From Heterodontus francisci (Eukaryota): a DNA stretch of 64,000 bases. The DNA is taken from positions 13,927,344-13,991,343 of the forward strand of contig NC_090417.1 in assembly GCF_036365525.1 (NCBI RefSeq), in the 5' to 3' direction. A program made the position numbers and the translations under genes. Below, piece by piece: positions 3,222 through 64,000 of the stretch. Positions within the stretch are counted from its first letter, which is position 1. Every line of letters begins with the position of its first letter. Below the pieces are notes generated by a model. It had not been told where the DNA came from and searched no databases. It saw only the letters and a list, made by a program, of their open reading frames with translations.

Positions 3222-6200
3222 TCACATGTCACAAAGGACGTCAGGATTTTCTTTACTGTAGGCCTTGTATTTGCAAAGCCTCTTGTCAAAGACTGCCTCG
3301 CAATTACTTGGGACATCTGGCATTTGGACATATCTAGCAGAAGCGAAAAAGAGACAATGGGATTAGTGATGACAATTTGCATTCAGATTCCTTCCCCCTC
3401 CATTGTTAGTCAAACAGCATCAGTTTTATTCTTGCTACTTGAAACTGTTGGTAGCCAAGGTTGAAGATCCTGAACACACAAGCTGGGCTCGTGCTGCACT
3501 GCACTAAGGCAGTGACCAAAAAAAGAGACTTGCATTTCGATAGCGCCTTTCACGAACGTCACAATGTCCCAAAGCATTCTACATGCAATGAGGTATTTTG
3601 AAGTGTAGTCACTGTTGTAATGTTGGAAGTGCAGAAGCCAATTTGTGCAGAGCAAGCTCCCGCAAACAGCAATTGGATTCTCAGTTTTAGTGATGTTGGT
3701 TGAGGGATAAATCATCCTCAGGAGGCTGTGATGTTGATGCACTTTTACACCAGGCTACAGATGGGTTGACAAAGTCCCGTCTCAATTCAGCAAACTATTT
3801 CAACACATCTCCCAACAGCCGGAATTCTCTGAGACGTTTTTGCTCAGCTGATGGTGTGTCTAATGGTGCGTCTGACCTACGGTGTGAAGAGATTCTACAC
3901 TCTGGTAGAATACGGCTATGCTAATGTGACAATGCTAGTCACCAGGGGTGGTGCAGCGGTTAGCACCGCAGCCTCACAGCTCCAGCGACCCGGGTTCAAT
4001 TCTGGGTACTGCCTGTGCGGAGTTTGCAAGTTCCCCCTGTGACTGCATGGGTTTCCGCCGGGTGCTCTGGTTTCCTCCCACAGCCAAAGACTTGCAGGTT
4101 GATAGGTAAATTGGCCGTTGTAAATTGTGGGTGGTAGGAGAATTGAGGGAAGGTGGTGAAGTGGTAGGAAATATGGGATTAATGTAGGATTAGTATAAAT
4201 GGGTGGTTGATGGTCGGCACAGACTCGGTGGGCCGATGGGCCTGTTTCAGTGCTGTATGACTCTATGACCTACAGCAAAGAGTTATGTGAGGCTCTACAG
4301 TTTGGCTTGCCTCTCAACTTCAGTCCCTTACCCACACCATCCCTGTTGGAAGCACACCTCCCAGGTCAACCTCAAAGCACACAATTGCAAACCTGGGAAA
4401 GAACGTGCACATCTCGTTGTGGTCTAACTTACTCTGTGCAGCAGATTGCAGTCACCTTTCCACAGTAACAGGTATAGCAGTCTTCACTCTTCCACATTGC
4501 TCCAACCTTGTAGGACATTCCTTTATCCAAACACTCTGCAAGGAAGAAATCTCAGTGTCAAGCACTTCTCCTTCACTGCTCACACTTTTCCAGAACCTTC
4601 AGACAATTTAGGTGTCTGGCAGAACCCTTTGCAGAGCTGAAAAGTTAATCGGGGATTGATGCCTTGGATTCTGATGTCTCATACACCCATTATCCCTGTG
4701 CTCACTGACCTACGTTTGCCCCCACTTAACCAACACCACCATTTTAAAATTCCCATCCTTATTTCACATCCCTCCATGGCCTCTCCCCTCCCTATCTCTG
4801 GAATCTCCTCCAGCCCCACAACTCTCCGAGATATCTGCGTTTCTCCAATTCTGGCCTCTTGAACATCCCCAGTTTTAATCACTGCCCTAAGTTCTGCAAT
4901 TCCCTCCATACACCTCTCCGTCTCTCTCTACCTTTCCTCGCTTAACAACCTTCTTAAAACCTAGTATGGTTCATCTCCTTATGTGGCTTGACTGTCAGAT
5001 TTAGTTTGATAACTCTCCTGTGAAGTGCCTTGAGAGGTTAAAGGCGCTGTACAAATGCAAGTTATTGTTGTTGTCTTGACATCCAATGTGTTCCGGATTT
5101 TAAAAACACCACCCAGACTTTTCTCTTGATAAACCTGCGCATTAGAAAGGCCAGTCGTTCCCACCAGTCTGGCGGTGGCTGAGTGACCTAGTTAAGAATA
5201 TAACCTGATATACATAGTCTTCGAGAAGTCTCAGTGCCTGCTGCTGTGTCTTTGTGCTACTCTCCTGTAGCCCCAGAGCCTGCTTGCAGATGGAATATTT
5301 ATTGTAAAGACACTGCTGCTCTCTAGTGTCAAGAGCTGAGATATTGCAGAAACCAACTCTTAATTCTCTGATCCAACAGCACTGAAATGAGGGAAGACTT
5401 GGTGAGTTAGTCAGCATCATGCAGAGTGAGAACACTGCTGGTTAATGTTTAATGAGTGAGCCCTTTGTCACGACTGAGTGCTTCCAGCTATTCTGTTTTG
5501 TTTTGCATTTCCAGAATTCCCACTTTGCTTCCTCATTCTCTGCTTCTGTTCAATCCAAGCCAAGTGCAAACTGTATTTAATAAATGTCACATGAGGATTA
5601 CATCGAATTTGCAGCACAGAAACATAAGAACATAAGAAACAGGAGCAGCAGCAGACCCTTCGATCTCTCAAGACTGCTTCGCTATTCAATAAAATCATGG
5701 CTGACCTTTGATCTCAACTCCACTTTAAGCCCGCTCCCTATATCCCTTCATTCCCTGAGAGAAAAAAATCAATCTTAAATATGCTCAATGATGGAATATC
5801 TACAACCCTCTGGGGTAGAGAATTCCAAAGATTCACATCCCTTTGAGTGAAGACATTTTTCCCATCTCAGTCCGAAATGATTATCCCCTTATCCTGAGAC
5901 TGTGTCCCTGTGTTTTCGATTCCCCAGCCAGGGGAAACAACCTGTCAAGCCCCTTCAGAATCTTTCATGTTTCAATCAGATCACCTCTCATTCTTCGAAA
6001 CTCCAATGAGTATCGGTCCAATTTACTCAGTCTCTCATCACAGGATAGCCCTCTGATCCCGAGGAGCAATCTTGTGAATCTTTGCTCTGCACTGCCTCCA
6101 ATGCAAGTATATCCTTCCTTCAATATGGAGACCAAAACCGCACACAGTACTCCAGATGCGGTCTCACCAAAGCCCTGTCTAATTGCAGCAAGACTTCCTT

Positions 6201-29899: not shown

Positions 29900-30265
29900 T
29901 CCCCCCTCCACTCTCACCCCTTCTCCCCCCCCCCCCCCTCCACTCTCCCCCCCCCTCCCTCTCCCTCTTTCTCCCCCCTTCCCTCTCCCTCTTTCTCCCC
30001 CCTCCCTCTCCCCCCCCTCCCTCTCCCTCTTTCTCCCCCCCCTCTCCCCCCTCCCTCTCCCTCTTTCTCCCCCCCCCTCCCTCTTTCTCCCCCCCTCCCT
30101 CTTTCTCCCCCCCCCTCTCCCCCCCTCCCTCTCCCTCTTTCTCCCCCCCTCCCTCTCCCTCTTTCTCCCCCCTCCCTCTCCCCCCCTCCCTCTCCCTCTT
30201 TCTCCCCCCCCTCCCTCTCCCTCTTTCTCCCCCCCCTCCCTCTTTCTCCCCCCCCCCCCCCACCC
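29900..30265 (+). repeat. Polypyrimidine low-complexity tract (ctccctctttctcccccc)n
   Basis: Directly visible. The long G/E- and P/S-rich ORFs over it are artefacts. Confidence 0.95.
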
Positions 30266-34300: not shown

Positions 34301-36481
34301 AGCACAGAAGGAGGCCATTCGGCCCATCATGTCCGTGCTGGCTCTCCGCAAGAGCAGCTCGCCGACTGCCATTCCCCCCCAGCCTTTCTCCCCAGATACC
34401 TGCAAATTCTTTCTCTTCGGATAGTTCCCCAATTCCATTCTGAAGGCCTCGATTGAATTTGCCTCCACCTCACTCTCAGTCAGTGCATTCCAAATCCTAA
34501 CCACTCGCTGAGTAAAAAAGGTTTCCCCCCTCATGTCGCTATTGCTTCTTTTGTCACTCACCTGAAATCGGTGTCCTCTGGTTCGATATCCTTCCGCCAA
34601 TGGGAATAGTTTCTCCCTATCTCCTCCGTCCAGATCCCTCCTGATTTTGAACACCTCTGTCAAATCACCTCTTAATCTTTTCTCCAAGGAAAACAGACTC
34701 AGCTTCTCCAGTCCAGCCACGTAAGTGGTGGTTGGAGTGGGTGGGGGCGGTGGGACTGACTGGATTGCTCCGCGGAGAGCCGGTATAGACTAGATGGGCT
34801 GAATGGCCTCTTTCTGTGCTGTAAGTGACTCTCTAACTTCATGACTTTATGAATCTATTCTGCATCCTCTCGAATGCCTTTACATCCTTCCTGAAGTGGA
34901 GTGCCCAGGACTGCATTTTGTGGAGACCAAACCAGTTTTTTGTATAGGTTTATCATAACTTCCTTGTTTTTGTACCCATGCCCCTCTTTATAAAGCCCAG
35001 AATCCCGTATGTTTTATTTACATGTGAGAGCAATGCCCCTGGCTGCTGAGCTTGCCTGGCCCGAGCAAGAGGAATAAATGTGATCTGCAATTGGGAAAAT
35101 GCTGGCAAACTCCTCGACTTCTATTTCCCCTCAGTGGAGAGGAATAAATAGACATTATTTCCTCCAGACAGACCTTCAAAATTACACTGTGGAAAAACAC
35201 CATCCAAATTCTTCATCCCTTTCATCTGGAGTTTCTTGGTCCAGGGTTTGAATCGGAGGCATGAACCTGTCTAAAATAAATGGTGAAAGTTCTCAAGCGA
35301 AATGGTAGCTTCCATATTGCTGTCCATTTCGATGGTTTGGGCTTCTTAACAGTCCTTAGTGATCTCATAGGGTCTCAGTAGAAGCAGATTCTGCTTCCAA
35401 ACCTTCTCCAGCAGAGCTGCAAACGCTGAGAGATAATGATTCCTACCCTCCTCTAACTCGTTCACTCTATTTCACCAGAGGTGTCCGATACTACCAAACT
35501 CTCAGAAGCACTGCATGTAACAAAGGACTGCAGACTGAAGCAATCAACATCTTTATTGTTGAGATTTATCGAACAATACAATTCAGCCAGCAAACAGCAA
35601 GTGCTTCAGAAACATAGGAACGAAAAGTTCCACCACGGGTCGACAACCCTTCAGAAACACTTGTTTTCAGATTGTACACCAAGCATAACTGGAAATTCAG
35701 TGGAGAAGATTCTGGCAGTTTGAGCCTAGTTCCAGCATCTCCGAGGCCCTGATACAGCTCAAGAAGAGAATATGAGGGAACATTTGTTATCTTGCCCAGG
35801 AATTGCTTTGCAACAAACTTTTTACATCTTCACTGTCAACCCAACCCTCATCACCTCCTTTTAAGAAAAGAAGATTCTGTGGCGACATTAATCTTCATGC
35901 AGTTTGAAAACAAGAAATAACTGGGGCACAAGTGCAGTGTGAAAAGAACTCATCTCGTGTGTCCTGTGGCGCAGTGGGCAGCACTCTTCCCTATTAGTCA
36001 GAAGGTTATGGATTAAAGTCCCACTGGAAAATCTAGGCTGATTTTCCCAGTGCTGGTACTGAGGGAGATGATGTCTTTGTGATGAAATTGAAGAGCTCGC
36101 GATCCTTTCAGTGGCTCTATGTCAAAGAGAGCAGGGGGGGTGGGGGGTTCTGGACAATTTTTTATCCATCAGCCACCAGCTCAAAAAAAACAAATGACCT
36201 GGTTATGATCAGAATGATATTTATGGGAGCTTGCTGTGCACAAATTGGCTGCTGCATTTCATGAATTACAATACTTCAAAAAGCATTCATTGGTTGCAAA
36301 GTGCTTTGAGCGTCTGAAAGGCACCCGATGAAAACAAGTGTTTCTTTGGATAGATACGAGTATGCAACAAAAAAAAACCAAACACAATCAGCCTTTCCAA
36401 TGAACGTCTGACAAAGTTAAATTGAAGAATTGCTTTCTCATTATGAGGTGAAATGTATGAGAAAATCTGCATACATACCAT
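31343..36481 (-). CDS. MSMB: Beta-microseminoprotein-like protein, paralog C (102 aa, 8 Cys); complement(join(31343..31454,32982..33093,34161..34242,36479..36481))
   Basis: An ATG|gtatgt micro-exon and exons of 82, 112 and 112 nt with canonical splice sites give MNVTLCLVLLLTAFALLES-AVKIYSKNSGRCKDHTDRTMHNLGSKWRNSDCQICKCLHTVVACWDVYSTPTSYPDDCIAVFERENCRYRVQKRNNPAIVCKT*. It is a clear paralog of B at DNA and protein level. AATAAA lies at 31236-31241 (-). The symbol denotes family. Confidence 0.9.
31985..32385 (+). mobile_element. tRNA-derived SINE whose 3' tail resembles the LINE end at 15575-15660
   Basis: B box gagttcaaatccc. Tail ttcaagaagggggttcaccctcaacctctcaag aligns by eye to the LINE sequence ttcaagaaggcaactcatcaccacctcctcaag. 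Confidence 0.65.
33395..34000 (-). mobile_element. Degraded CR1 3' fragment in intron 2 of paralog C
   Basis: KIMKGFERVDVEAMFPLVG motif and a CR1 tail. Confidence 0.75.
34290..34720 (-). mobile_element. CR1 3' fragment
   Basis: LFSLEKRLRGDLTEVFKI...FFTQRVVRIWNAL. Confidence 0.85.
35965..36340 (+). mobile_element. Deu-domain SINE
   Basis: tRNA head tggcgcagtgggcagcactc and core gggagcttgctgtgcacaaattggctgc. Confidence 0.7.
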
Positions 36482-37279
36482 TGCTGCAACTGTCTGACCA
36501 GAAGTCTGTTTCCTCAGTGAGAAGGAGAACTGCTGGCTTGTATTATTCGCTCTCAGCTTTACTCCAGACTATCGCACAGGTCGTACAGGGGAAGTCGCTC
36601 AGGTAGAATCAGCAGCTGCCAGAAATTGCCACGAATGCTTGGTTTGTTGAGTTTTGTGATCATAAATATCGAAAATGTAAAGCAGATGCCAACTGTCTGA
36701 TTTTTGAAGAGTTTCCTGCTTGTAGCTCATGATGGGAAAAGTGAGAAAGGTGTCAATCATCAAGTGTTTCGATTCCCCTTTGGTCAGTCCAGAAGTGACG
36801 CCACAAACCTACCCTTGTCTCCACCTTTATCCTGCACCACCACCACCCCCCCCAGCCCAAGCTCCAGCTCCTGGTTGGAACTTGGCAGAAGGTGCCAAGT
36901 TTACACAGTGGAGTCAGTCAAGCACAACGACTTCTGAAATGTGTCGTTTCTCAAAGGACTCTCCACAATGTGAGTCTCTGAAGAGGAACTGAACTGGGAA
37001 CAGATTGGAAAAACTGGAAAGGGGGACGCCTGTTCACCTGGAAAGAGTCCTGCTCAGGTACAGATTGCAAGTTAACTCGTCTTAATAATCGGTTATTGTT
37101 TTTGGATGAAGTTCCTGATCAAAATCAGGAAGCTGTGCATCAAGTGAAATCTTTTTTGTGAATTCACATGGTCCCACAAATGAATACAGTTCGATCAGGC
37201 CTGGTATCAAGGAAAATCATCTGGAAAGAATCACAAGGGGAAGACAGGGAGAGATTTGATCTCCATAATCCTTTGCCAC

Positions 37280-37880
37280 AACAACAAAAATTTGTATTTA
37301 TCGAGCACCTTGAACATACTCAAATGTCCCAAGGCGCATGCACTGTGTCGTATCAGGTGATGTCAGAGCAGATGAACAAAATCTTGGTGAAAGAGTTCAG
37401 TTTGAAGGAAAGTCTGAAAGCGAGGTGGAGAGGCGGACAGATTTAGGGATGGTGGAGAGGTTAATATCAGGGATGCACAAGAGGCCAGAATTGGTGGAGC
37501 GCAGAGATCTCGGAGGCTTGTGGGGCTGCAGGGAATTACAGAGATGGAGAGGGGATAGGCCATGGAGGTATTTGAAAACAAGGCCGTAAATGTTTCAATT
37601 GAGGCATTGCCATACCAGGGAGTCAAAGCAGATCACAAGCAGGGGTGATAGGTGAACTGGACTTGGTGTGAGTTAAGACACAGGCAGCAGAGTTTTGCTT
37701 GAACTCAGGTTTAGGGAGGGTAGAATGTGGGAGACCAGCCAGGAGTGCATTGGAATAGTCAAGTCTAGAGGTAACAAAAGCATGGATGAGGGTTTCAGCA
37801 GCAGGTGAGCTGAGCCGGAGCGATGTTACAGAGCTGGAAATAGGCGGTCTTAGCGATGGCGCATCTATGAGGCTCAATCA
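37280..37880 (-). mobile_element. L2 LINE 3' fragment
   Basis: AAETLIHAFVTSRLDYSNALLAGLP...QNSAACVLTHTKSSSPITP is the canonical L2 ORF2 C-terminal motif set. Confidence 0.9.
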
Positions 37881-48700: not shown

Positions 48701-49059
48701 CTGCTGTGTTCCTCCATCTGCCGTTAGGCTACAGGATCTCTTCTTCCTCCTCTGCCTTGCCTTGTCGGAAGTAACTTCATTGTTGGTGTCAGTGAGCTGT
48801 GTGTGGCTCTCTTCGCCTGCCTGACCACAGGCTCTGTTACTGAATGTGATTGTGTCCTTGGACACGGTACATGGGGTCTGGTAGCAGAGTAGCTAAAGAT
48901 CTGTGCTGTGCAAAGTGTGTCGGTGGTGCATTGCATTATCTCACACGACTGAAGCAGGGAGTGCAGACACATAGTGATACAGTTTCCTGCCACTGGTCTT
49001 GTGACACAAGTTCCTCTTTTGAGGGCTATCTACTTGCAACAAGATGTATAATGATTCAA

Positions 49060-49330
49060 CAACTTAAATGTATACCGGGCCTTGACAGGAGCATTCGAGC
49101 TACAAAAGGAGACATAAAATCAGATGATCAAAATCTTGGAGAAGGAGGTAGGTTTTAAGCAGTGTCTTCAAGGAGGAAAGCAAAGGGGGAGAGGCAGAGA
49201 GTTTTAGGGAAGATATTCCAGAGCTTTGGGGCCGAGGCAACTGAAGGCACAGCCAGCAATGGTGGAGCGATTAAAATCAGGAATGCACGAGAAGACGGAA
49301 GTAGAGTAGTGCAGATATCTGGGAGGGTCA
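49060..49330 (-). mobile_element. L2 LINE 3' fragment; continues at 54370-54505 beyond the nested CR1 insertions
   Basis: Colinear with the L2 copies at 37280-37680 and 4700-5000. Confidence 0.75.
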
Positions 49331-49331
49331 A

Positions 49332-49577
49332 AGAACAAAGATAATTACAGCACAGGAACAGGCCCTTCGGCCCTCCAAGCCTGCGCCGATCCAGATCCTC
49401 TCTCTAAACATGTCGCCTATTTTCTAAGGTTCTGTATCTCTTTTCTTCCTGCCCATTCATGTATCTGTCTAGATACATCTTAAAAGACTCCATTGTGCCC
49501 GCGTCTACCACCTCCGCTGGCAACGCGTTCCAGGTGCCCACCACCCTCTGCGTAAAGAACTTTCCACGCTCATTTCC
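49332..49577 (-). mobile_element. CR1 3' end (host of the full-length CR1); continues at 53854-54364
   Basis: FFTQRVVGTWNALP-coding sequence joins seamlessly to ...FKVKGEMFRG at 53854. Confidence 0.88.
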
Positions 49578-49937
49578 CGGCGGAGCAGCAGGAGAAGGTA
49601 GCGACTCTTCGGTGGGGAAGTGAAGGCACCAGGAACTGTGTTTTGAAAGTTGTACTTACTGTTTTCCTTGTGTTCAAGCTACTTTTGGCGCGGGAGGAAC
49701 CGGAAGCTGGACGGCAGCAAGGACTCCTGGGTAGGTATTTTCTTTAAAGGTGCGGAGCAGAGTTAACCCGAGACACTACACATGTAGTGTCTCCCACCCA
49801 TCCTCCTCCTCTAACCTAATAATAAGACCCTTTTTACCCTCCTCCTCTAACCAAAAAGGACTGAACAGGTAAGCTATTTCACTGTTTTTGTTAATATCTA
49901 TATTTGTACTTAATTAAGGGGTAATTGAGTAAAAGAA

Positions 49938-50858
49938 ATGGCAGCCAGGGGAGTGCAGTGCTCCTCCTGCAGTATGTTCGAGGTGAGGGGAACCTCCGGT
50001 GACCCTGCCGACTTCACCTGCTGGAAGTGCATCCGTCTCCAGCTCCTATCAGACCGTGTTAGGGAACTGGAGCTGGAGCTGGATGAACTGAGGATCATTC
50101 GGGAAGCTGAGGGGGTGATAGATAGAAGCTACAGGGATGTCGTTACTCCACAAAACAAAGGCAGCTGGGTAACAGTTAGAGGTGGGAAGAGGTCAGTGCA
50201 GGGATCTCCTGTGGTCGTTCCCCTCAGCAACAAGTATACAGTTTTAGATACTGTTGGGGGGGACGGCCTATCGGGGGCAGGCTGCAGTGAACGGGCCTCT
50301 GGCACGGGGTCCTGCACTGTGGCTCAGAAGGGAAGGAGGGAAAATGGGAGAGCACTAGTCATCGGGGACTCGATGGTGAGGAGTACGGACAGGCGGTTCT
50401 GTGGGCGCAAGCGAGACGCACGGATGGTTTGCTGCCTCCCTGGTGCCAGGGTCCGTGATGTTTGTGATCGCGTCTTCAGGATCCTTAAAGGGGAGGGGGA
50501 GCAGCCAGAGGTCGTGGTGCACATTGGCACCAACGACGTAGGAAGGAAGGGTGGCACAGATGTTAGAAGTGAGTTTAGGGAGTTAGGCTGGAAGCTGAAA
50601 GCTCGGACGGACAGAGTTGTTATCTCTGGTTTGTTGCCGGCGCCACGTGATAGTGAGGCTAGGAATAGGGAGAGAGCACAGCTGAACACGTGGCTGCAGG
50701 AATGGTGTAGGAGGGAGGGCTTCCAGTTCTTGGATAATTGGACTGCATTCTGGGGAAGATGGGACCTGTTCAAACAGGACGGGCTGCATCTGAACCAGAG
50801 GGGCACCAATATCCTGGGAGGGAGGTTTGCTAGTACTGTTCGGGAGGGTTTAAACTAG
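49938..50858 (+). CDS. CR1 ORF1p: CxxC...CxxC zinc finger, coiled coil, SGNH/GDSL esterase-like domain
   Basis: CSSC...CWKC, LSDRVRELELELDEL, IGDS, GA, HIGTND and DGLH blocks. 306 aa, intact. Confidence 0.95.
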   Translation: MAARGVQCSSCSMFEVRGTSGDPADFTCWKCIRLQLLSDRVRELELELDELRIIREAEGVIDRSYRDVVTPQNKGSWVTVRGGKRSVQGSPVVVPLSNKYTVLDTVGGDGLSGAGCSERASGTGSCTVAQKGRRENGRALVIGDSMVRSTDRRFCGRKRDARMVCCLPGARVRDVCDRVFRILKGEGEQPEVVVHIGTNDVGRKGGTDVRSEFRELGWKLKARTDRVVISGLLPAPRDSEARNRERAQLNTWLQEWCRREGFQFLDNWTAFWGRWDLFKQDGLHLNQRGTNILGGRFASTVREGLN

Positions 50859-53748
50859 TTTGGGAGGGGGATGGGAACCGGACTTGTAGTCCAGGGACCA
50901 GTGGGTCCACTCAGAAAGACAAAGAGTGTAGTGAGGTATTGGGGAAGGTAGCACTGTCGCAGAGGACAGATGGGCACGGAGAAGGGTTAAAGTGCGTATA
51001 CTTCAACGCAAGAAGCATCAGGAATAAGGTGAGTGAATTGAAGGCGTGGATGGGCACTTGGGACTACGATGTTGTGGCCATCACTGAAACGTGGATAGGT
51101 GAGGGGGAGGAATGGTTCTTGGAGGTACCTGGTTATAGATGTTTTCATAAGATTAGGAATGGTGGTAAAAGAGGTGGGGGGGTGGCATTGTTAGTTAGAA
51201 ATAGTGTAACAACTGCTGAAAGAATTTTCGAGGAGGATCTGCCGACTGAGGCACTGTGGGTTGAGGTCAGGAACAGGAAAGGAGCAGTCACCTTGATGGG
51301 AGTTTTCTATCGGCCCCCCAATAGCAGCAGGGAGGTGGAAGAGCAGATTGGGAAACAGATTTTGGAAAGGAGCAGAAGTCACAGGGTAGTAATTATGGGG
51401 GATTTCAACTTCCCAAATATTGATTGGCAACTCTTTAGATCGAATAGTTTGGATGGGGTAGTGTTTGTGCAGTATGTCCAGGAAGCTTTTCTGACTCAGT
51501 ATGTAGACTGCCCGACCAGAGGGGAGGCAATATTGGATTTGGTACTAGGTAATGAACCAGGGCAAGTGATAGAGCTGTTGGTGGGCGAGCACTTTGGAGA
51601 TAGTGATCACAATTCTGTAGCATTCACTGTGGTAATGGAGAGGGATAGGTATGTGCAACAGGGCAAGGTTTACAATTGGGGGAAGGGTAGATATGATGCT
51701 GTCAGGCAGGAACTGAGGAGCATAAGTTGGGAGCATATGCTGGCAGGGAAGGGCACGGTCGAAATGTGGAACTTTTTCAAGGAGCAGATAGTAGGGGCCA
51801 TTGATAAGCATGTCCCTGTCAGACAGGGAAGGGATGGTCATGTGAGGGAACCGTGGTTGACAAGAGAGGTTGAGAGTCTTGTTAGGAAGAAGAAGGATGC
51901 GTATATAAGGTTGAGGAAAAAGGGCACAGGCATAGCTCTGGAGGGATACAAGATGGCCAGGAAGGATCTGAAGAAAGGGATTAGGAGAGCTAAGAGAGGG
52001 CATGAAAAATGCTTGGCGGGTAGGATAAAAGAAAACCCCAAGGCCTTTTACGCGTATGTCAGAAATATGAGGATGACTAGGGGACCGTAGGTCCGGTCAA
52101 GGACAATAGCGGGAGACTGTGTGTTGAGCCGGAAGAGATAAGTGAGGTTTTGAATGAGTACTTCTCTTCGGTATTTACGAATGAGAAGGGGTGTATTACT
52201 GAAGAGGACGGTGTGAAACAGACTGGTAAGCTCGAGGAAGTGCTCGTTAGGAGGGAAGATGTGTTGGGGTTTTTGAATAACTTGAAGATAGACAAGTCTC
52301 CCGGGCCTGACGGGGTATATCCAAGGATGTTATGGGAAGCAAGGGATGAAATTGCAGAGCCGCTGGCAATGATCTTTTCATCTTCTCTGTTGACGGGGGT
52401 GGTACCAGGTGATTGGAGGGTGGCAAATGTTGTGCCCCTGTTCAAGAAAGGAAATAGGAACAACCCTGGGAATTACAGGCCAGTTAGTCTTACTTCGGTG
52501 GTAGGCAAGTTGATGGAAAAGGTGCTGAGGGATAGGATTTCTGAGCATCTGGAAAGACAATGCTTGATTCGGGACAGTCAGCACGGTTTTGTGAGGGGTA
52601 GGTCTTGCCTCACAAGCCTGATTGAATTCTTTGAGCAGGTGACCAAGCAAGTGGATGAGGGTAAACCAGTGGATGTGGTGTACATGGATTTTAGTAAGGC
52701 ATTTGATAAGGTCCCCCATGGTAGACTTATGGAGAAAGTCAGGAGGCATGGGATAGTGGGGAATGTGGCCAGTTGGATTAAGAATTGGCTAACTGATAGA
52801 AGGCAGAGAGTGGTCTTAGATGGTAAATACTCAGCCTGGAGCCCAGTTACCAGTGGCGTGCCACAGGGATCAGTTCTGGGTCCTCTCCTGTTTGTGATTT
52901 TTATTAACGACTTGGATGAGGAAGTCGAAGGGTGGGTCAGTAAATTTGCAGATGATACAAAGGTTGGTGGAGTTGTGGATACCGAGGAGGGCTATTGTCG
53001 TCTGCAAAGGGACTTGGATAGGTTGCAGTGCTGGGCTGAAAAGTGGCAGATGGAGTTTAACCCTGAAAAGTGTGAGGTCGTCCATTTTGGAAGGACAAAC
53101 ACGAATGCAAAATACTGGGTTAACGGTAGGGTTCTTGGGCATGTGGAGGAGCAGAGAGACCTTGGGGTCTATGTGCATAGATCGTTGAAAGTTGCAACTC
53201 AAGTGGATAGGGCTGTGAAGAAGGCATATGGGGTGTTAGCGTTCATTAGCAGAGGGATTGAATTTAAGAGCCGTGAGGTGATGATGCAGCTGTACAGGAC
53301 CTTGGTAAGGCCTCATTTGGAGTACTGTGTGCAGTTCTGGTCGCCTCATTTTAGGAAGGATGTGGAAGCCTTGGAGAGGGTGCAGAGGAGATTTACCAGG
53401 ATGTTGCCTGGAATGGAGAATAAGTCTTACGAGGAAAGGCTGAACATTCTAGGCCTCTTCTCATTAGAACGGAGAAGGATGAGGGGTGACATGATAGAGG
53501 TTTATAAGATGATCAGGGGAATAGATAGGGTAGACAGTCAGAAACTTTTTCCCCGGGTGGAGCAAAGCGTTACAAGGGGTCATAAATTTAAGGTGAAGGG
53601 TGGGAGATATAAGGGGGATGTCAGGGGAAGGTTCTTTACCCAGAGAGTGGTCGGGGCATGGAATGCCTTGCCTGGGGAAGTTGTTGAGTCAGAAACTTTA
53701 GGGACTTTCAAACGGCTTTTAGATAGGTATATGGATAAAGGAGAATGA
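50849..53748 (+). CDS. CR1 ORF2p (APE endonuclease and reverse transcriptase), split by one missing base at 52080-52083
   Basis: YFNARS, ITETW, YRPPN, GDFN, SDHN (endonuclease); [34 protein letters not shown] (RT). The frame is open from 50834, with no ATG before the endonuclease motifs. Confidence 0.93.
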
Positions 53749-53853
53749 TGGGGTATAGATTAAATTGTCCTTGACAGAGGACAAAGGATCGGCACAACAT
53801 CGTGGGCCGAAGGGCCTGTTCTGTGCTGTATTTTTCTATGTTCTATGTTCTAT

Positions 53854-54364
53854 CCCCCCTAAACATTTCCCCTTTCACTTTGAACTCGTGTCCTCTAGTA
53901 ATTGAAACCCCCACTCTGGGAAAAAGCCTCTTGCTATCCACTCTGTCTATACCTCTCATGATTTTGTACACCTCAATCAGGTCCCCCCTCAACCTCCGTC
54001 TTTCTAATGAAAATAATCCTAATCTACTCAACCTCTCTTCATAGCTAGCGCCCTCCATACCAGGCAACATCCTGGTGAACCTCCTCTGCACCCTCTCCAA
54101 AGCATCCACATCCTTTTGATAATGTGGCGACCAGAACTGCACGCAGTATTCCAAATGTGGCCGAACCAAAGTCCTATACAACTGTAACATGACCTGCCAA
54201 CTCTTGTACTCAATGCCCCGTCCGATGAAGGAAAGCATGCCGTATGCCTTCTTGACCACTCTATTTACCTGCGTTGCCACCTTCAGGGAACAGTGGACCT
54301 GAACACCCAAATCTCTCTGGACATCAATTTTCCCCAGGACTTTTCCATTTACTTGATAGTTCAC
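53854..54364 (-). mobile_element. 5'-truncated CR1, right portion of the host element
   Basis: Uninterrupted QRDLGVQVH...LVRPHLEYCVQFWSPHYQKD frame. Confidence 0.93.
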
Positions 54365-54452
54365 TCACAGGGCAAGAGACGGGAGAGGCCATGGAGGGAT
54401 TTGAAAACAAGGATGTATATTTTTAAATCAAGACATTGCTTGACCGGGAGCC

Positions 54453-57400
54453 AACGTCAGTCAGCGAACGCAGGGGTGACAGGGGAACGGGACATGGTGT
54501 GTGTTAATGTAGGTCAGTGAGTACAGGGGTGATAGGGGAATGGGACTTGGTGTGTGTTAATGTAGGTCAGTGAGGACAGGGGTGATAGGGGAACGGGACT
54601 TGGTGTGTGTTAATGTAGGTCAGTGAGTACAGGGGTGATAGGGGAATGGGACTTGGTGTGTGTTAATGTAGGTCAGTGAGCACAGGGGTGATAGGGGAAT
54701 GGGACTTGGTGTGTGTTAATGTAGGTCAGTGAGTACAGGGGTGATAGGGGAATGGGACTTGGTGTGTGTTAATGTAGGTCAGTGAGTACAGGGGTGACAG
54801 GGGAACGGGACTTGGTGTGTGTTAATGTCGGTCAGTGATTACAGGGGTGATAGGGGAATGGGACTTGGTGTGTGTTAATGTTGGTCAGTGAGCACAGGAG
54901 TGATAGGGGAACGGGACATGGTGTGTGTTAATGTAGGTCAGTGAGCACAGGGGTGATAGGGGAACGGGACTTGGTGTGTGTTAATGTAGGTCAGTGAGTA
55001 CAGGGGTGATAGGGGAATGGGACTTGGTGTGTGTTAATGTTGGTCAGTGAGTACAGGGGTGATAGGGGAACGTGTCTTGGTGTGTGTTAATGTAGGTCAG
55101 TGAGTACAGGGGTGATAGGGGAACGGGACTTGGTGTGTGTTAATGTAGGTCAGTGAGTACAGGGGTGATAGGGGAATGGGACTTGGTGTGTGTTAATGTA
55201 GGTCAGTGAGCACAGGGGTGATAGGGGAATGGGACTTGGTGTGTGTTAATGTAGGTCAGTGAGTACAGGGGTGATAGGGGAATGGGACTTGGTGTGTGTT
55301 AATGTAGGTCAGTGATTACAGGGGTGATAGGGGAATGGGACTTGGTGTGTGTTAATGTTGGTCAGTGAGCACAGGAGTGATAGGGGAACGGGACATGGTG
55401 TGTGTTAATGTAGGTCAGTGAGCACAGGGGTGATAGGGGAACGGGACTTGGTGTGTGTTAATGTAGGTCAGTGAGTACAGGGGTGATAGGGGAATGGGAC
55501 TTGGTGTGTGTTAATGTTGGTCAGTGAGTACAGGGGTGATAGGGGAATGGGACTTGGTGTGTGTTAATGTAGGTCAGTGAGTACAGGGGTGATAGGGGAA
55601 AGGAACTTGGTGTGTGTTAATGTAGGTCAGTGAGTACAGGGGTGATAGGGGAACGGGACTTGGTGTGTGTTAATATAGGTCAGTGAGTACAGGGGTGATA
55701 GGGGAAGGGGACTTGGTGTGTGTTAATGTAGGTCAGTGAGTACAGGGGTGATAGGGGAATGGGACTTGGTGTGTGTTAATGTTGGTCAGTGAGCACAGGA
55801 GTGATAGGGGAACGGGACTTGGTGTGTGTTAATGTAGGTCAGTGAGTACAGGGGTGATTGGGGAACGGGACTTGGTGTGTGTTAATGTAGGTCAGTGAGT
55901 ACAGGAGTGATAGGGGAACGGGACTTGGTGTGTGTTAATATAGGTCAGTGAGCACAGGGGTGATAGGGGAACGGGACTTGGTGTGTGTTAATGTCGGTCA
56001 GTGAGTACAGGGGTGATAGGGGAATGGGACATGGTGTGTGTTAATGTAGGTCAGTGAGCACAGGGGTGATAGGGGAACGGGACTTGGTGTGTGTTAATGT
56101 AGGTCAGTGAGTACAGGGGTGATTGGGGAACGGGACTTGGTGTGTGTTAATGTAGGTCAGTGAGTACAGGGGTGATAGGGGAATGGGACTTGGTGTGTGT
56201 TAATGTAGGTCAGTGAGTACAGGGGTGATAGGGGAACGGGACTTGGTGTGTGTTAATGTCGGTCAGTGAGTACAGGAGTGATAGGGGAACGGGACTTGGT
56301 GTGTGTTAATATAGGTCAGTGAGCACAGGGGTGATAGGGGAACGGGACTTGGTGTGTGTTAATGTCGGTCAGTGAGTACAGGGGTGATAGGGGAATGGGA
56401 CATGGTGTGTGTTAATGTAGGTCAGTGAGCACAGGGGTGATAGGGGAACGGGACTTGGTGTGTGTTAATGTAGGTCAGTGAGTACAGGGGTGATAGGGGA
56501 ATGGGACTTGGTGTGTGTTAATGTTGGTCAGTGAGTACAGGGGTGATAGGGGAATGGGACTTGGTGTGTGTTAATGTAGGTCAGTGAGTACAGGGGTGAT
56601 AGGGGAAAGGAACTTGGTGTGTGTTAATGTAGGTCAGTGAGTACAGGGGTGATAGGGGAACGGGACTTGGTGTGTGTTAATGTAGGTCAGTGAGTACAGG
56701 GGTTATAGGGGAACGGGACTTGGTGTGTGTTAATATAGGTCAGTGAGTACAGGGGTGATAGGGGAAGGGGACTTATTGTGTGTTAATGTAGGTCAGTGAG
56801 TACAGGGGTGATAGGGGAATGGGACTTGGTGTGTGTTAATGTTGGTCAGTGAGCACAGGAGTGATAGGGGAATGGGACTTGGTGTGTGTTAATGTTGGTC
56901 AGTGAGTACAGGGGTGATAGGGGAATGGGACTTGGTGTGTGTTAATGTAGGTCAGTGAGGACAGGGGTGATAGGGGAAAGGAACTTGGTGTGTGTTAATG
57001 TAGGTCAGTGAGCACAGGGGTGATAGGGGAACGGGACTTGGTGTGTGTTAATGTAGGTCAGTGAGGACAGGGGTGATAGGGGAAAGGAACTTGGTGTGTG
57101 TTAATGTAGGTCAGTGAGTACAGGGGTGATAGGGGAATGGGACTTGGTGTGTGTTAATGTCGGTCAGTGAGTACAGGGGTGATAGAGGAACGGGTCTTGG
57201 TGTGTGTTAATATAGGTCAGTGAGAACAGGGGTGATAGGGGAACGGGACTTGGTGTGTGTTAATATAGGTCAGTGAGCACAGGGGTGATAGGGGAAAGGG
57301 ACTTGGTGTGTGTTAATGTAGGTCAGTGAGCACAGGGGTGATAGGGGAATGGGACTTGGTGTGTGTTAATGTAGGTCAGTGAGTACAGGGGTGATAGGGG

Positions 57401-60400
57401 AATGGGACTTGGTGTGTGTTAATGTAGGTCAGTGAGTACAGGGGTGACAGGGGAACGGGACTTGGTGTGTGTTAATGTCGGTCAGTGATTACAGGGGTGA
57501 TAGGGGAATGGGACTTGGTGTGTGTTAATGTTGGTCAGTGAGCACAGGAGTGATAGGGGAACGGGACATGGTGTGTGTTAATGTAGGTCAGTGAGCACAG
57601 GGGTGATAGGGGAACGGGACTTGGTGTGTGTTAATGTAGGTCAGTGAGTACAGGGGTGATAGGGGAATGGGACTTGGTGTGTGTTAATGTTGGTCAGTGA
57701 GTACAGGGGTGATAGGGGAAAGGAACTTGGTGTGTGTTAATGTAGGTCAGTGAGTACAGGGGTGATAGGGGAACGGGACTTGGTGTGTGTTAATGTAGGT
57801 CAGTGAGCACAGGGGTGATAGGGGAACGGGACTTGGTGTGTGTTAATGTAGGTCAGTGAGTACAGGGGTGATAGGGGAATGGGACTTGGTGTGTGTTAAT
57901 GTTGGTCAGTGAGTACAGGGGTGATAGGGGAATGGGACTTGGTGTGTGTTAATGTAGGTCAGTGAGTACAGGGGTGATAGGGGAAAGGAACTTGGTGTAT
58001 GTTAATGTAGGTCAGTGAGTACAGGGGTGATAGGGGAACGGGACTTGGTGTGTGTTAATGTAGGTCAGTGAGTACAGGGGTTATAGGGGAACGGGACTTG
58101 GTGTGTGTTAATATAGGTCAGTGAGTACAGGGGTGATAGGGGAAGGGGACTTGGTGTGTGTTAATGTAGGTCAGTGAGTACAGGGGTGATAGGGGAATGG
58201 GACTTGGTGTGTGTTAATGTTGGTCAGTGAGCACAGGAGTGATAGGGGAACGGGACTTGGTGTGTGTTAATGTAGGTCAGTGAGTACAGGGGTGATAGGG
58301 GAACGGGACTTGGTGTGTGTTAATATAGGTCAGTGAGCACAGGGGTGATAGGGGAATGGGACATGGTGTGTGTTAATGTAGGTCAGTGAGCACAGGGGTG
58401 ATAGGGGAACGGGACTTGGTGTGTGTTAATGTAGGTCAGTGAGTACAGGGGTGATAGGGGAATGGGACTTGGTGTGTGTTAATGTTGGTCAGTGAGTACA
58501 GGGGTGATAGGGGAATGGGACTTGGTGTGTGTTAATGTAGGTCAGTGAGTACAGGGGTGATAGGGGAAAGGAACTTGGTGTGTGTTAATGTAGGTCAGTG
58601 AGTACAGGGGTGATAGGGGAACGGGACTTGGTGTGTGTTAATGTAGGTCAGTGAGTACAGGGGTTATAGGGGAACGGGACTTGGTGTGTGTTAATATAGG
58701 TCAGTGAGTACAGGGGTGATAGGGGAAGGGGACTTATTGTGTGTTAATGTAGGTCAGTGAGTACAGGGGTGATAGGGGAATGGGACTTGGTGTGTGTTAA
58801 TGTTGGTCAGTGAGCACAGGAGTGATAGGGGAATGGGACTTGGTGTGTGTTAATGTTGGTCAGTGAGTACAGGGGTGATAGGGGAATGGGACTTGGTGTG
58901 TGTTAATGTAGGTCAGTGAGGACAGGGGTGATAGGGGAAAGGAACTTGGTGTGTGTTAATGTAGGTCAGTGAGCACAGGGGTGATAGGGGAACGGGACTT
59001 GGTGTGTGTTAATGTAGGTCAGTGAGGACAGGGGTGATAGGGGAAAGGAGCTTGGTGTGTGTTAATGTAGGTCAGTGAGCACAGGGGTTATAGGGAAACG
59101 GGACTTGGTGTGTGTTAATGTAGGTCAGTGAGTACAGGGGTGATAGGGGAATGGGACTTGGTGTGTGTTAATGTCGGTCAGTGAGTACAGGGGTGATAGG
59201 GGAACGGGACTTGGTGTGTGTTAATGTAGGTCAGTGAGTACAGGGGTGATAGGGGAAAGGAACTTGGTGTGTGTTAATGTAGGTCAGTGAGTACAGGGGT
59301 GATAGGGGAACGGGACTTGGTGTGTGTTAATGTAGGTCAGTGAGTACAGGGGTTATAGGGGAACGGGACTTGGTGTGTGTTAATATAGGTCAGTGAGTAC
59401 AGGGGTGATAGGGGAAGGGGACTTGGTGTGTGTTAATGTAGGTCAGTGAGTACAGGGGTGATAGGGGAAGGGGACTTGGTGTGTGTTAATGTAGGTCAGT
59501 GAGCACAGGGGTGATAGGGGAACGGGACTTGGTGTGTGTTAATGTAGGTCAGTGAGTACAGGGGTGATAGGGGAACGGGACTTGGTGTGTGTTAATATAG
59601 GTCAGTGAGTACAGGGGTGATAGGGGAATGGGACTTGGTGTGTGTTAATGTAGGTCAGTGAGCACAGGGGTGATAGGGGAACGGGACTTGGTGTGTGTTA
59701 ATGTAGGTCAGTGAGCACAGGGGTGATAGGGGAACGGGACTTGGTGTGTGTTAATGTAGGTCAGTGAGTACAGGGGTGATAGGGGAATGGGACTTGGTGT
59801 GTGTTAATGTTGGTCAGTGAGTACAGGGGTGATAGGGGAAAGGAACTTGGTGTGTGTTAATGTAGGTCAGTGAGTACAGGGGTGATAGGGGAACGGGACT
59901 TGGTGTGTGTTAATGTAGGTCAGTGAGCACAGGGGTGATAGGGGAACGGGACTTGGTGTGTGTTAATGTAGGTCAGTGAGTACAGGGGTGATAGGGGAAT
60001 GGGACTTGGTGTGTGTTAATGTTGGTCAGTGAGTACAGGGGTGATAGGGGAATGGGACTTGGTGTGTGTTAATGTAGGTCAGTGAGTACAGGGGTGATAG
60101 GGGAAAGGAACTTGGTGTGTGTTAATGTAGGTCAGTGAGTACAGGGGTGATAGGGGAATGACACTTGGTGTGTGTTAATGTAGGTCAGTGAGTACAGGAG
60201 TTATAGGGGAACGGGACTTGGTGTGTGTTAATATAGGTCAGTGAGTACAGGGGTGATAGGGGAAGGGGACTTGGTGTGTGTTAATGTAGGTCAGTGAGTA
60301 CAGGGGTGATAGGGGAATGGGACTTGGTGTGTGTTAATGTTGGTCAGTGAGCACAGGAGTGATAGGGGAACGGGACATGGTGTGTGTTAATGTAGGTCAG

Positions 60401-63400
60401 TGAGTACAGGGGTGATAGGGGAATGGGACTTGGTGTGTGTTAATGTTGGTCAGTGAGTACAGGGGTGATAGGGGAATGGGACTTGGTGTGTGTTAATGTA
60501 GGTCAGTGAGTACAGGGGTGATAGGGGAAAGGAACTTGGTGTGTGTTAATGTAGGTCAGTGAGTACAGGGGTGATAGGGGAACGGGACTTGGTGTGTGTT
60601 AATGTAGGTCAGTGAGTACAGGGGTTATAGGGGAACGGGACTTGGTGTGTGTTAATATAGGTCAGTGAGTACAGGGGTGATAGGGGAAGGGGACTTGGTG
60701 TGTGTTAATGTAGGTCAGTGAGTACAGGGGTGATAGGGGAATGGGACTTGGTGTGTGTTAATGTAGGTCAGTGAGTACAGGGGTGATAGGGGAACGGGAC
60801 TTGGTGTGTGTTAATGTAGGTCAGTGAGTACAGGGGTGATAGGGGAATGGGACTTGGTGTGTGTTAATGTAGGTCAGTGAGTACAGGGGTGATAGGGGAA
60901 CGGGACTTGGTGTGTGTTAATGTAGGTCAGTGATTACAGGGGTGATAGGGGAATGGGACTTGGTGTGTGTTAATGTTGGTCAGTGAGCACAGGGATGATA
61001 GGGGAACGGGACTTGGTGTGTGTTAATGTAGGTCAGTGAGTACAGGGGTGATAGGGGAACGGGTCTTGGTGTGTGTTAATGTTGGTCAGTGAGTACAGGG
61101 GTGATAGAGGAACGGGTCTTGGTGTGTGTTAATATAGGTCAGTGAGCACAGGGGTGATAGGGGAACGGGACTTGGTGTGTGTTAATATAGGTCAGTGAGC
61201 ACAGGGGTGATAGGGGAAAGGGACTTGGTGTGTGTTAATGTAGGTCAGTGAGTACAGGGGTGATAGGGGAACGGGACTTGGTGTGTGTTAATGTAGGTCA
61301 GTGAGTACAGGGGTGATAGGGGAACGGGTCTTGGTGTGTGTTAATATAGGTCAGTGAGTACAGGGGGTGATAGGGGAATGGGACTTGGTGTGTGTTAATG
61401 TCGGTCAGTGAGTACAGGGGTGATTGGGGAACGGGACTTGGTGTGTGTTAATGTCGGTCAGTGAGCACAGGAGTGATAGGGGAACGGGACTTGGTGTGTG
61501 TTAATGTAGGTCAGTGAGTACAGGGGTGATAGGGGAACGGGACTTGGTGTGTGTTAATATAGGTCAGTGAGCACAGGGGTGATAGGGGAACGGGACTTGG
61601 TGTGTGTTAATGTCGGTCAGTGAGTACAGGGGTGATAGGGGAATGGGACATGGTGTGTGTTAATGTAGGTCAGTGAGCACAGGGGTGATAGGGGAACGGG
61701 ACTTGGTGTGTGTTAATGTAGGTCAGTGAGTACAGGGGTGATAGGGGAATGGGACTTGGTGTGTGTTAATGTTGGTCAGTGAGTACAGGGGTGATAGGGG
61801 AATGGGACTTGGTGTGTGTTAATGTAGGTCAGTGAGTACAGGGGTGATAGGGGAAAGGAACTTGGTGTGTGTTAATGTAGGTCAGTGAGTACAGGGGTGA
61901 TAGGGGAACGGGACTTGGTGTGTGTTAATGTAGGTCAGTGAGTACAGGGGTTATAGGGGAACGGGACTTGGTGTGTGTTAATATAGGTCAGTGAGTACAG
62001 GGGTGATAGGGGAAGGGGACTTATTGTGTGTTAATGTAGGTCAGTGAGTACAGGGGTGATAGGGGAATGGGACTTGGTGTGTGTTAATGTTGGTCAGTGA
62101 GCACAGGAGTGATAGGGGAATGGGACTTGGTGTGTGTTAATGTTGGTCAGTGAGTACAGGGGTGATAGGGGAATGGGACTTGGTGTGTGTTAATGTAGGT
62201 CAGTGAGGACAGGGGTGATAGGGGAAAGGAACTTGGTGTGTGTTAATGTAGGTCAGTGAGCACAGGGGTGATAGGGGAACGGGACTTGGTGTGTGTTAAT
62301 GTAGGTCAGTGAGGACAGGGGTGATAGGGGAAAGGAGCTTGGTGTGTGTTAATGTAGGTCAGTGAGCACAGGGGTTATAGGGGAACGGGACTTGGTGTGT
62401 GTTAATGTAGGTCAGTGAGTACAGGGGTGATAGGGGAATGGGACTTGGTGTGTGTTAATGTCGGTCAGTGAGTACAGGGGTGATAGGGGAACGGGACTTG
62501 GTGTGTGTTAATGTAGGTCAGTGAGTACAGGGGTGATAGGGGAAAGGAACTTGGTGTGTGTTAATGTAGGTCAGTGAGTACAGGGGTGATAGGGGAACGG
62601 GACCTGGTGTGTGTTAATGTAGGTCAGTGAGTACAGGGGTTATAGGGGAACGGGACTTGGTGTGTGTTAATATAGGTCAGTGAGTACAGGGGTGATAGGG
62701 GAAGGGGACTTGGTGTGTGTTAATGTAGGTCAGTGAGTACAGGGGTGATAGGGGAAGGGGACTTGGTGTGTGTTAATGTAGGTCAGTGAGTACAGGGGTG
62801 ATAGGGGAATGGGACTTGGTGTGTGTTAATGTAGGTCAGTGAGCACAGGGGTGATAGGGGAACGGGACTTGGTGTGTGTTAATGTAGGTCAGTGAGCACA
62901 GGGGTGATAGGGGAATGGGACTTGGTGTGTGTTAATGTAGGTCAGTGAGTACAGGGGTGATAGGGGAATGGGACTTGGTGTGTGTTAATGTTGGTCAGTG
63001 AGTACAGGGGTGATAGGGGAATGGGACTTGGTGTGTGTTAATGTTGGTCAGTGAGTACAGGGGTGATAGGGGAATGGGACTTGGTGTGTGTTAATGTAGG
63101 TCAGTGAGTACAGGGGTGATAGGGGAAAGGAACTTGGTGTGTGTTAATGTAGGTCAGTGAGTACAGGGGTGATAGGGGAATGACACTTGGTGTGTGTTAA
63201 TGTAGGTCAGTGAGCACAGGGGTGATAGGGGAATGGGACTTGGTGTGTGTTAATGTTGGTCAGTGAGTACAGGGGTGATAGGGGAATGGGACTTGGTGTG
63301 TGTTAATGTAGGTCAGTGAGTACAGGGGTGATAGGGGAAAGGAACTTGGTGTGTGTTAATGTAGGTCAGTGAGTACAGGGGTGATAGGGGAATGACACTT

Positions 63401-64000
63401 GGTGTGTGTTAATGTAGGTCAGTGAGTACAGGGGTTATAGGGGAACGGGACTTGGTGTGTGTTAATATAGGTCAGTGAGGACAGGGGTGATAGGGGAAGG
63501 GGACTTGGTGTGTGTTAATGTAGGTCAGTGAGTACAGGGGTGATAGGGGAATGGGACTTGGTGTGTGTTAATGTTGGTCAGTGAGCACAGGAGTGATAGG
63601 GGAACGGGACATGCTGTGTGTTAATGTAGGTCAGTGAGTACAGGGGTGATAGGGGAATGGGACTTGGTGTGTGTTAATGTTGGTCAGTGAGTACAGGGGT
63701 GATAGGGGAATGGGACTTGGTGTGTGTTAATGTAGGTCAGTGAGTACAGGGGTGATAGGGGAAAGGAACTTGGTGTGTGTTAATGTAGGTCAGTGAGTAC
63801 AGGGGTGATAGGGGAACGGGACTTGGTGTGTGTTAATGTAGGTCAGTGAGTACAGGGGTTATAGGGGAACGGGACTTGGTGTGTGTTAATATAGGTCAGT
63901 GAGTACAGGGGTGATAGGGGAAGGGGACTTGGTGTGTGTTAATGTAGGTCAGTGAGTACAGGGGTGATAGGGGAATGGGACTTGGTGTGTGTTAATGTAG
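54453..64000. repeat. Tandem satellite, 53-bp monomer aatgtaggtcagtgagtacaggggtgataggggaa(t/c)gggacttggtgtgtgtt, ~180 copies, extends past the window
   Basis: Period of 53 nt read directly (54506, 54559, ...), with only substitution variants and rare 1-nt indels. Confidence 0.99.

What the first reader, a model, noticed from the sequence alone, without database searches (positions are those of the whole stretch)
54370..64000. A satellite born from LINE-2 coding sequence, with its birth junction preserved
Seen: the reverse complement of the monomer (aacacacaccaagtcccattcccctatcacccctgtactcactgacctacatt) encodes THTKSHSPITPVLTDLH. This is the L2 ORF2 segment also present single-copy at 37625-37680 (LTHTKSSSPITP) and ~4680 (HTPIIPVLTDL). 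The array grows directly out of an L2 copy: 54370-54460 is ordinary L2 (minus strand RWLPV...), the first unit is divergent, and then ~180 homogenised units follow. Inference: in-situ tandem amplification of 53 nt of an old L2 into a satellite of at least 9.5 kb.
Basis: partly seen in the sequence, partly recalled or inferred. Interest (0 to 1): 0.7.

Follow-up and report, generated by a model that had tools for sequence, protein, structure and literature searches.

The report
Shark satellite cut from a LINE
A 53-base scrap of an old jumping gene (likely LINE-2) is repeated head-to-tail about 180 times here and likely tens of thousands of times elsewhere in this shark-like genome, a new example of a well-known way satellite DNA arises, and this spot is likely a later exchange point rather than its birthplace.

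Summary
Window 54471-64000 is about 180 units of 53 bp. The unit is LINE ORF2 coding sequence, joined in register to a 104-bp LINE stub. That same copy resumes at 49328, beyond two nested CR1 insertions. The L2 label is recalled, not tested against labelled references. The host is an elasmobranch.

The 'birth junction' is not shown. Unit 1 is a mosaic: 5 of its outer 16 bases carry alleles seen in 0 of 178 other units, against 0 of the inner 37 (p=0.0015). There is no age gradient. In a second individual's raw reads the unit peaks at depth about 4,380, where 19-44 reads are expected from 9.5 kb alone; this suggests a family of roughly 1-2 Mb. Those reads hold 48- and 54-bp variants, and two low-depth contigs leave the unit into other DNA. 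The far end was unreachable (no genome).

Verdict: a TE-derived satellite of the known squamate 'sSat' type. An L2-type donor in a shark was not found in my searches. New member of a known kind.

The parts
54471..64000 (-). Tandem array of a 53-bp LINE ORF2 segment, about 180 units, running off the window end (strand = LINE sense)
   Evidence: TRF; unit table; tblastn of RT-LINE ORF2 proteins 61-72% over 18 aa per unit
54455..54470 (-). Outer 16 bp of unit 1: old LINE flank homologous to the unit, with 5 alleles seen in 0 of 178 other units
   Evidence: LINE-family alleles at these places, tables 3 and 7
54367..54470 (-). LINE (likely L2) stub in register with the array, coding WLPVKQCLDLKIYILVFKSLHGL
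53854..54366 (-). 5'-truncated CR1 (outer), upstream part, inserted into the LINE copy; about 17-19 bp of the target LINE are missing
49579..53853 (+). Near-full-length CR1 (inner) inserted into the outer CR1: esterase ORF1, endonuclease and RT in two frames, short tandem tail
49329..49578 (-). 3' end of the outer CR1
49057..49328 (-). Continuation and 3' tail of the same LINE copy whose stub abuts the array
   Evidence: collinear with copies at 16.3 kb and 37.5 kb; tail
37279..37832 (-). Unexpanded LINE-family copy used as reference; spans the unit once, with QNSAA upstream
4677..5073 (+). Shorter unexpanded LINE-family copy used as reference

Best explanation
The array is about 180 head-to-tail copies of a 53-base piece of LINE (likely L2) ORF2 joined in register to the 3' remnant of one old copy, and it is likely one end of a roughly megabase satellite family whose edge here is likely a recent exchange point rather than the birth site. 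Step 1 (inferred): the unit arose once, in some LINE copy, by slippage or microhomology-mediated duplication between imperfect 7-bp direct repeats (5 of 7 alike; 2 bp exact at the break). Step 2 (pattern shown, mechanism inferred): it is turned over by unequal exchange or conversion of blocks of 5-14 units, with no fixed higher-order period. Step 3 (inferred): because every dispersed LINE copy carries a near match to the unit, an existing array can recombine into such a copy and leave an in-register junction like this one. The repeat is non-coding (stops in every 159-bp cycle on both strands) and likely selfish or neutral.
For: Unit = LINE ORF2 segment about 108 aa from the C-terminus. In-register stub and resumption at 49328. 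Abrupt edge: 5 of 16 versus 0 of 37 alleles never seen in the array, Fisher p=0.0015. At 54455, 54458, 54459, 54468 and 54470 the commonest allele in X1 LINE-family contigs is the array's, not the stub's (tables 3 and 7). No gradient (Spearman 0.035, p=0.64), and units 5-11 recur as units 55-61. Longest identical block 14 units against at most 5 in 100 shuffles. X21 raw reads: peak depth about 4,380 of 11,989,820 reads, against 19-44 expected for 9.53 kb (assumed genome 2.6-6 Gb), with 934 reads joining back by 106 bp. Monomer/CR1 peak ratio is similar in capture reads (0.64) and whole-genome contigs (0.78). Variants rare or absent in the window: 48-bp period (53 reads), +G (342 of 4,358 versus 1 of 179 units), column-29 A (470 of 4,196 versus 2 of 178). 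Precedent: squamate SINE-derived satellites keep a TE-matching terminal unit across hundreds to thousands of loci (PMC10702118).
Against: In-register adjacency is also what birth here predicts, and an old birth with recent conversion up to 54471 gives the same mosaic. The unlaid parts of contigs 2 and 7 are not shown; they could be insertions inside one large array, or its far end. X21 is a capture library of another individual, so its repeat share may be distorted and its variants may be individual differences; summed contig depth is not a copy number. 12-14% of monomer-part reads carry a LINE-type allele and may be dispersed copies. Only 4 of 24 listed runs were laid, on 321 bp, and 16,326 pieces, 559 loose ends and 129 joints were not shown.
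Confidence: 0.55

Rival explanations
1. One reading: the unit was duplicated in this very LINE copy long ago, grew in place into one very large array (which would account for the read excess), and the outer 16 bp decayed outside the zone of homogenisation.
For: In-register join, and the LINE continues to its tail. The flank is not co-amplified. One event suffices. Human TE-derived repeats are mostly single-locus and grow by local duplication (5,747 of 5,932 clusters; PMC3389668).
Against: 0 of 5 flank alleles are shared with the array, so birth must predate most of this copy's decay, yet no old units survive near the edge. Other apparent ends and variant periods exist.
Confidence: 0.33
2. Add-on mechanism: a G-quadruplex on the G-rich strand favours amplification of this particular segment. 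The array-fixed G at column 30 turns GGTG into GGGG and would stall replication as in CEB1-type minisatellites.
For: G4Hunter maximum 1.76 for the unit, against 1.04-1.12 for three unexpanded copies; 31 of 1,018 background tiles reach 1.7. Column 30 is G in 178 of 178 units and T in both window copies aligned there.
Against: Only three runs of three or more G per unit; the fourth is GG. Run-breaking variants are common (column 21 A in 14, column 37 A in 20 of 178). ViennaRNA with G4 enabled returned hairpins, not a quadruplex (its G4 terms are not fitted to DNA). CEB1 papers were seen as search listings only.
Confidence: 0.2
3. The tandem was built into an active LINE subfamily and was spread by retrotransposition, as with LTR12 or the Ogre-borne arrays, then expanded at some insertion sites.
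For: Precedents in PMC3389668 and PMC7004042 (abstract). Short tandem pieces occur in low-depth contigs.
Against: The window copy that spans the whole segment (37.6 kb) carries it once, and TRF finds no such tandem at any other copy. The duplication breaks the ORF2 frame (53 is not a multiple of 3). Reads on the stub are few compared with reads on the unit.
Confidence: 0.08
4. The length or block structure of the array is an assembly artefact.
For: Exact repeats of 12-14 units. The best runs hold only 0.71-0.73 of sampled words. No listed piece spans the junction.
Against: One indel in 9.5 kb, 45 unit types with shared alleles. Independent raw reads show abundant tandem joints.
Confidence: 0.04

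Closest known systems
SINE-derived satellites (sSat3) of snakes and lizards, Vassetzky et al. 2023, PMC10702118 (abstract and sections 5, 19 read)
   Same: Unit cut from inside a retroposon (67 nt in snakes); terminal unit running on into the element up to its end; long loci about 94% alike; hundreds of units per locus; arrays more uniform than dispersed copies.
   Different: Donor here is LINE ORF2 coding sequence, not a SINE; host is an elasmobranch; number of loci and subtelomeric bias are untested here.
TE-derived minisatellites of the human genome, Ahmed and Liang 2012, PMC3389668 (passages and section 3.1 read)
   Same: Tandem duplication of an internal TE segment, grown by local duplication; 23% of human minisatellites are of this origin, so the class is common.
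   Different: Human cases total 1.05 Mb over 7,276 repeats and come mainly from Alu, ERV and L1, favouring young elements; here one family is estimated at that size and the donor is an old LINE.
LINE-derived satellites: PROsat and Pvc20 (L1 ORF2), common cetacean satellite (L1 3' part), chicken HinfI (CR1), as tabulated in PMC9659126 (passages and Table 1 read)
   Same: Satellite monomer containing LINE ORF2 or 3' sequence in a vertebrate.
   Different: That table has no L2 row and no cartilaginous fish. In PROsat the LINE match is a small region of the satellite; here the whole 53-bp unit is ORF2.
Lathyrus retrotransposon-derived satellites, Vondrak et al. 2019, PMC7004042 (abstract only)
   Same: Satellite arrays that remain attached to the parent retroelement.
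   Different: There the short tandem is built into the LTR element and travels with it; here the unexpanded reference copy carries the segment once.

Membership tests
TE-derived satellite/minisatellite (sSat type) | Head-to-tail array of homogeneous units | tested here: met
   179.8 copies, 94% matches; 5.0% pairwise difference
TE-derived satellite/minisatellite (sSat type) | Unit homologous to an internal part of an interspersed element | tested here: met
   89-92% over 37 bp to 37640-37676; 61-72% over 18 aa to RT-LINE ORF2 proteins
TE-derived satellite/minisatellite (sSat type) | Terminal unit continues into the element up to its terminus | tested here: met
   Stub 54367-54470, resumption 49328 to tail near 49057
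TE-derived satellite/minisatellite (sSat type) | Same unit at several loci | tested here: inconclusive
   Read excess, variant periods and two contigs with other flanks, but no genome is held
TE-derived satellite/minisatellite (sSat type) | Subtelomeric or pericentromeric position | not testable with these tools
   No genome, no chromosome position
L2 clade LINE (donor) | ORF2 with endonuclease and reverse transcriptase | tested here: met
   For relatives, not the copies themselves: the 65-aa frame of the 37.6-kb copy matches 120 listed proteins (of 181) at median 58%; P0023 and P0028 bear PF03372/PF14529 plus PF00078
L2 clade LINE (donor) | Distinct from CR1 | tested here: met
   77 of the 120 hits match the window's CR1 ORF2, at median 25% only; no direct blastp match between the fragment and CR1 ORF2; different 3' tails
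L2 clade LINE (donor) | RT domain falls in the canonical L2 clade against labelled references | not testable with these tools
   Window copies lack RT; labelled consensus cells in the PMC13343379 supplement are cut at 400 characters and four short motifs were not found. The L2 name rests on recalled motifs (ETLIHAF...QNSAA...LHWLP; GTT-type tail)
Higher-order-repeat (centromeric-type) satellite | Fixed multi-unit period | tested here: not met
   Identity by lag at most 0.21 (lag 62) among 25 lags printed; copied blocks at many different lags
G4-unstable minisatellite (CEB1 type) | Four runs of three or more G with short loops | tested here: not met
   Three such runs plus GG per unit; G4Hunter 1.76 but no quadruplex in the ViennaRNA fold; the canonical rule is recalled

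The most novel reading that the evidence does not exclude
A megabase-scale satellite made wholly of L2 reverse-transcriptase-gene codons seeds new arrays by recombining into the genome's many dead L2 copies, which act as landing pads. It is shared by more than one shark species and was favoured by one substitution that strengthens a G-quadruplex. Each junction would then record a dated spreading event, making satellite dispersal by ectopic homology directly testable.
Probability: 0.2. Interest if true: 0.6.

Novelty: new member of a known kind. Interest (0 to 1): 0.3.

Why it matters
TE-derived tandem repeats are common and well described, so the class is not news. What this case adds is an apparently unreported donor and host (an L2-type ORF2 in an elasmobranch; not found in searches of an open-access library) and a clean junction at which parent copy and array can be compared base by base. 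It also shows that an in-register TE stub does not by itself prove a birth site. With the assembly in hand, all array ends could be compared to decide between single birth and spread through homologous TE copies, which is an open point in the squamate work. Elasmobranch genomes are rich in simple tandem repeats (PMC10620051; bioRxiv 10.1101/2025.06.08.657570; passages read), and the passages I saw do not trace their origin.

Tried and rejected
No whole genome is held, so the far end and other arrays could not be read.

Exact-pattern scans for array motifs found 0 loci in metagenome contigs, viral contigs and prokaryote genomes. Rfam: 0 matches in 1-55500. Earlier findings: none in three look-ups.

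Cross-species sharing is not claimed. Organisms B-F hold 0.21-0.31 of the words, but the CR1 part alone is 30% of the distinct words. X10 (organism B) has tandem-spanning contigs (records 11 and 14) and array-type alleles, with CR1 alleles unlike A's (54320 C 40% versus 1.4%), but only 307 laid records at about 1/200 of A's depth, so foreign DNA in the run is not excluded. X11 (organism C) is 88-94% LINE-type at diagnostic columns, and its faint CR1 signal has A-like allele shares, so its few array-type contigs may be carry-over.

A coding role was rejected: stops recur on both strands. A fixed higher-order repeat and an edge gradient were rejected.

The L2 label could not be confirmed from papers: the PMC5499810 supplement was not available and the PMC13343379 supplement is cut; both may bear on the clade name. 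The two 'L2-derived' passages checked (2 of 7 papers listed) did not concern satellites.

Full report
OBSERVATION. TRF reports one long array, 54471-64000, period 53, 179.8 copies, 94% matches, score 16895; the other 13 rows are short low-complexity repeats. From 54508 the array holds 178 units of 53 bp, one of 54 bp at 61345 and a 5-bp remainder. The 178 units fall into 45 types, vary at 19 columns, lie 3.2% from the majority unit and 5.0% from each other, and carry only 7 singleton alleles. On the minus strand each unit reads LTHTKS[H/R]SPITPVLTDLH and the flank continues RWLPVKQCLDLKIYILVFKSLHGL. Stops recur on both strands, so the array is not an open frame.

DONOR. The junction region aligns to dispersed copies at 37547-37676 (78%, E 6e-24), 4694-4793, 16297-16344 and 25572-25607. 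The 65-aa open frame of the 37.6-kb copy finds 181 proteins, 120 listed, many with RT (PF00078) and endonuclease domains, from teleosts, hagfish and cartilaginous fishes. It matches them at median 58%, about 108 residues before the C-terminus; 77 of the 120 match the window's CR1 ORF2, at median 25%. In the part of the output shown, such proteins align to unit 1 plus stub over 41-42 aa (E down to 2e-9) and to single units at 61-72% over 18 aa (14 proteins were queried and the printout was cut). The donor is therefore the 3' coding part of a non-CR1 LINE. The name L2 rests on recalled motifs and the GTT-type tails. I could not test it against labelled consensuses because the supplement cells are cut. 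L2 sequence is reported in sharks and chimaeras (PMC5499810 passages; PMC13343379 table rows), and galeomorph sharks are reported to lack detectable L2 representatives in that survey of putatively full-length elements. The host is an elasmobranch: the closest named animal relatives of the neighbouring CR1 ORF1 are from Mustelus (70%), Stegostoma (69%) and rays.

The stub is only 54367-54470. The same LINE copy resumes at 49328 and runs to its tail near 49057, collinear with the copies at 16.3 and 37.5 kb, with about 17-19 bp missing. Between the halves lies a 5'-truncated CR1 on the minus strand (54366-53854 and 49578-49329), itself split by a near-full-length plus-strand CR1 (49579-53853) with esterase ORF1, endonuclease and RT. 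The order of insertion follows from the nesting: LINE, outer CR1, inner CR1. The array cannot be placed in that order.

THE JUNCTION. Unit 1 (54455-54507) differs from the majority unit at 9 columns. In its outer 16 bp, 5 alleles occur in 0 of 178 other units; in its inner 37 bp none is private (Fisher p=0.0015; the split point was chosen after seeing the data, so the value is optimistic). In X1 contigs the LINE family mostly carries the array's allele at 54455, 54458, 54459, 54468 and 54470, so these are changes of the stub; at column 11 the stub keeps the family's C while the array is fixed for T (tables 3 and 7). The overlap thus gives no shared derived allele linking the array to this copy. 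There is no gradient of divergence along the array (rho 0.035, p 0.64), and units 5-11 recur as units 55-61. Identical blocks reach 14 units against at most 5 in 100 shuffles, at many lags and with no fixed period. This is the pattern expected of recent unequal exchange or conversion (inference). The duplication break has 2 bp of exact microhomology inside an imperfect 7-bp repeat, compatible with slippage or microhomology-mediated birth (inference).

FAMILY SIZE. No genome is held. A run search with 54000-56400 listed 24 runs; 4 were laid on 54270-54590 at 90% likeness. In X21, raw capture reads of another individual of organism A (11,989,820 reads, about 90% of the run), depth on the unit peaks near 4,380. 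About 86% of these reads carry the array allele at column 48. For an assumed genome of 2.6-6 Gb the window's 9.53 kb would give 19-44 reads; the observed share suggests 0.8-1.9 Mb, or 15,000-35,000 units. Capture can distort repeat shares, but the monomer/CR1 ratio is similar in X21 (0.64) and in whole-genome contigs X1 (0.78). Tandem joints are abundant (934 reads go back by 106 bp). Variants rare or absent in the window appear: a 48-bp period (53 reads), a +G unit (7.8% versus 1 of 179) and column-29 A (11% versus 2 of 178). The stub edge has about 1% of the unit's depth, mostly with family alleles, so the flank is not co-amplified. The output was truncated (16,326 pieces, 559 loose ends, 129 joints not shown), and no loose end with upstream LINE sequence was among those listed. 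Sharing with organisms B and C is not established (see Tried and rejected).

MECHANISM. Shown: LINE origin of the unit, in-register join, block-wise copying, abrupt edge, abundance of tandem reads. Inferred: single duplication at a short imperfect repeat; growth by unequal exchange or conversion; arrival at this copy by homologous recombination between an existing array and a dispersed LINE copy. I put secondary arrival at 0.55 and birth here at 0.33, with 0.08 for retrotransposed tandems and 0.04 for artefact. A G-quadruplex contribution is an independent add-on at 0.2: G4Hunter gives 1.76 against 1.04-1.12 for unexpanded copies, and 31 of 1,018 background tiles reach 1.7, but the motif is non-canonical and the fold program returned none.

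COMPARISON WITH WHAT IS KNOWN. Squamate SINE-derived satellites have the same anatomy, including a terminal unit that runs into the parent element, with up to thousands of loci and about 1,000 units (PMC10702118; abstract and sections 5 and 19). In humans 7,276 minisatellites (23%) derive from TEs (PMC3389668; passages and section 3.1). LINE ORF2-derived satellites are listed for L1 and CR1, with no L2 row (PMC9659126; passages and Table 1). Retrotransposon-borne arrays are described in Lathyrus (PMC7004042; abstract). Shark papers note abundant tandem repeats and a Y-linked satellite, with no LINE origin in the passages seen (PMC10620051, bioRxiv 10.1101/2025.06.08.657570, PMC11406177). Nine searches of the open-access library showed no L2-derived shark satellite in their listings. 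Subscription papers, Repbase and Dfam were not searchable, so it may already be catalogued.

VERDICT. Observation confirmed; interpretation partly supported. A real LINE-derived satellite of a known kind, with a possibly unreported donor and host. The birth-junction claim is unproven and somewhat less likely than a secondary junction. Interest 0.3.

Noticed in passing
window 49579-53853 (+): Near-full-length CR1 with esterase ORF1 (PF13472, E 8e-14) and ORF2 split into two frames near 52081-52090 (endonuclease, then RT), nested in another CR1, which is nested in the LINE copy.
   Followed up: partly
P0121: A protein labelled Pseudomonas aeruginosa SGNH/GDSL hydrolase on a 4.2-kb contig is 91% identical to this CR1 ORF1; likely shark DNA in a bacterial assembly.
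   Followed up: no
joints at window 54563 to 54516 and insertion at 54525: Reads hold a 48-bp-period variant (5-bp deletion near the unit junction) absent from the window's units, and a 54-bp variant far commoner than in the window.
   Followed up: partly
window 1934-2873 and 19353-20292: Two CR1 fragments in opposite orientation, 88% alike over 951 bp.
   Followed up: no
window about 28100-28200 and 29800-30350: Two related segments beside purine/pyrimidine low-complexity tracts share a short translated motif; two nearby ORFs had no Pfam match.
   Followed up: partly
window 12317-12590, 16254-16542, 25566-25770: Further short 3' fragments of the same LINE family; the window holds at least six copies in 54 kb.
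   Followed up: partly
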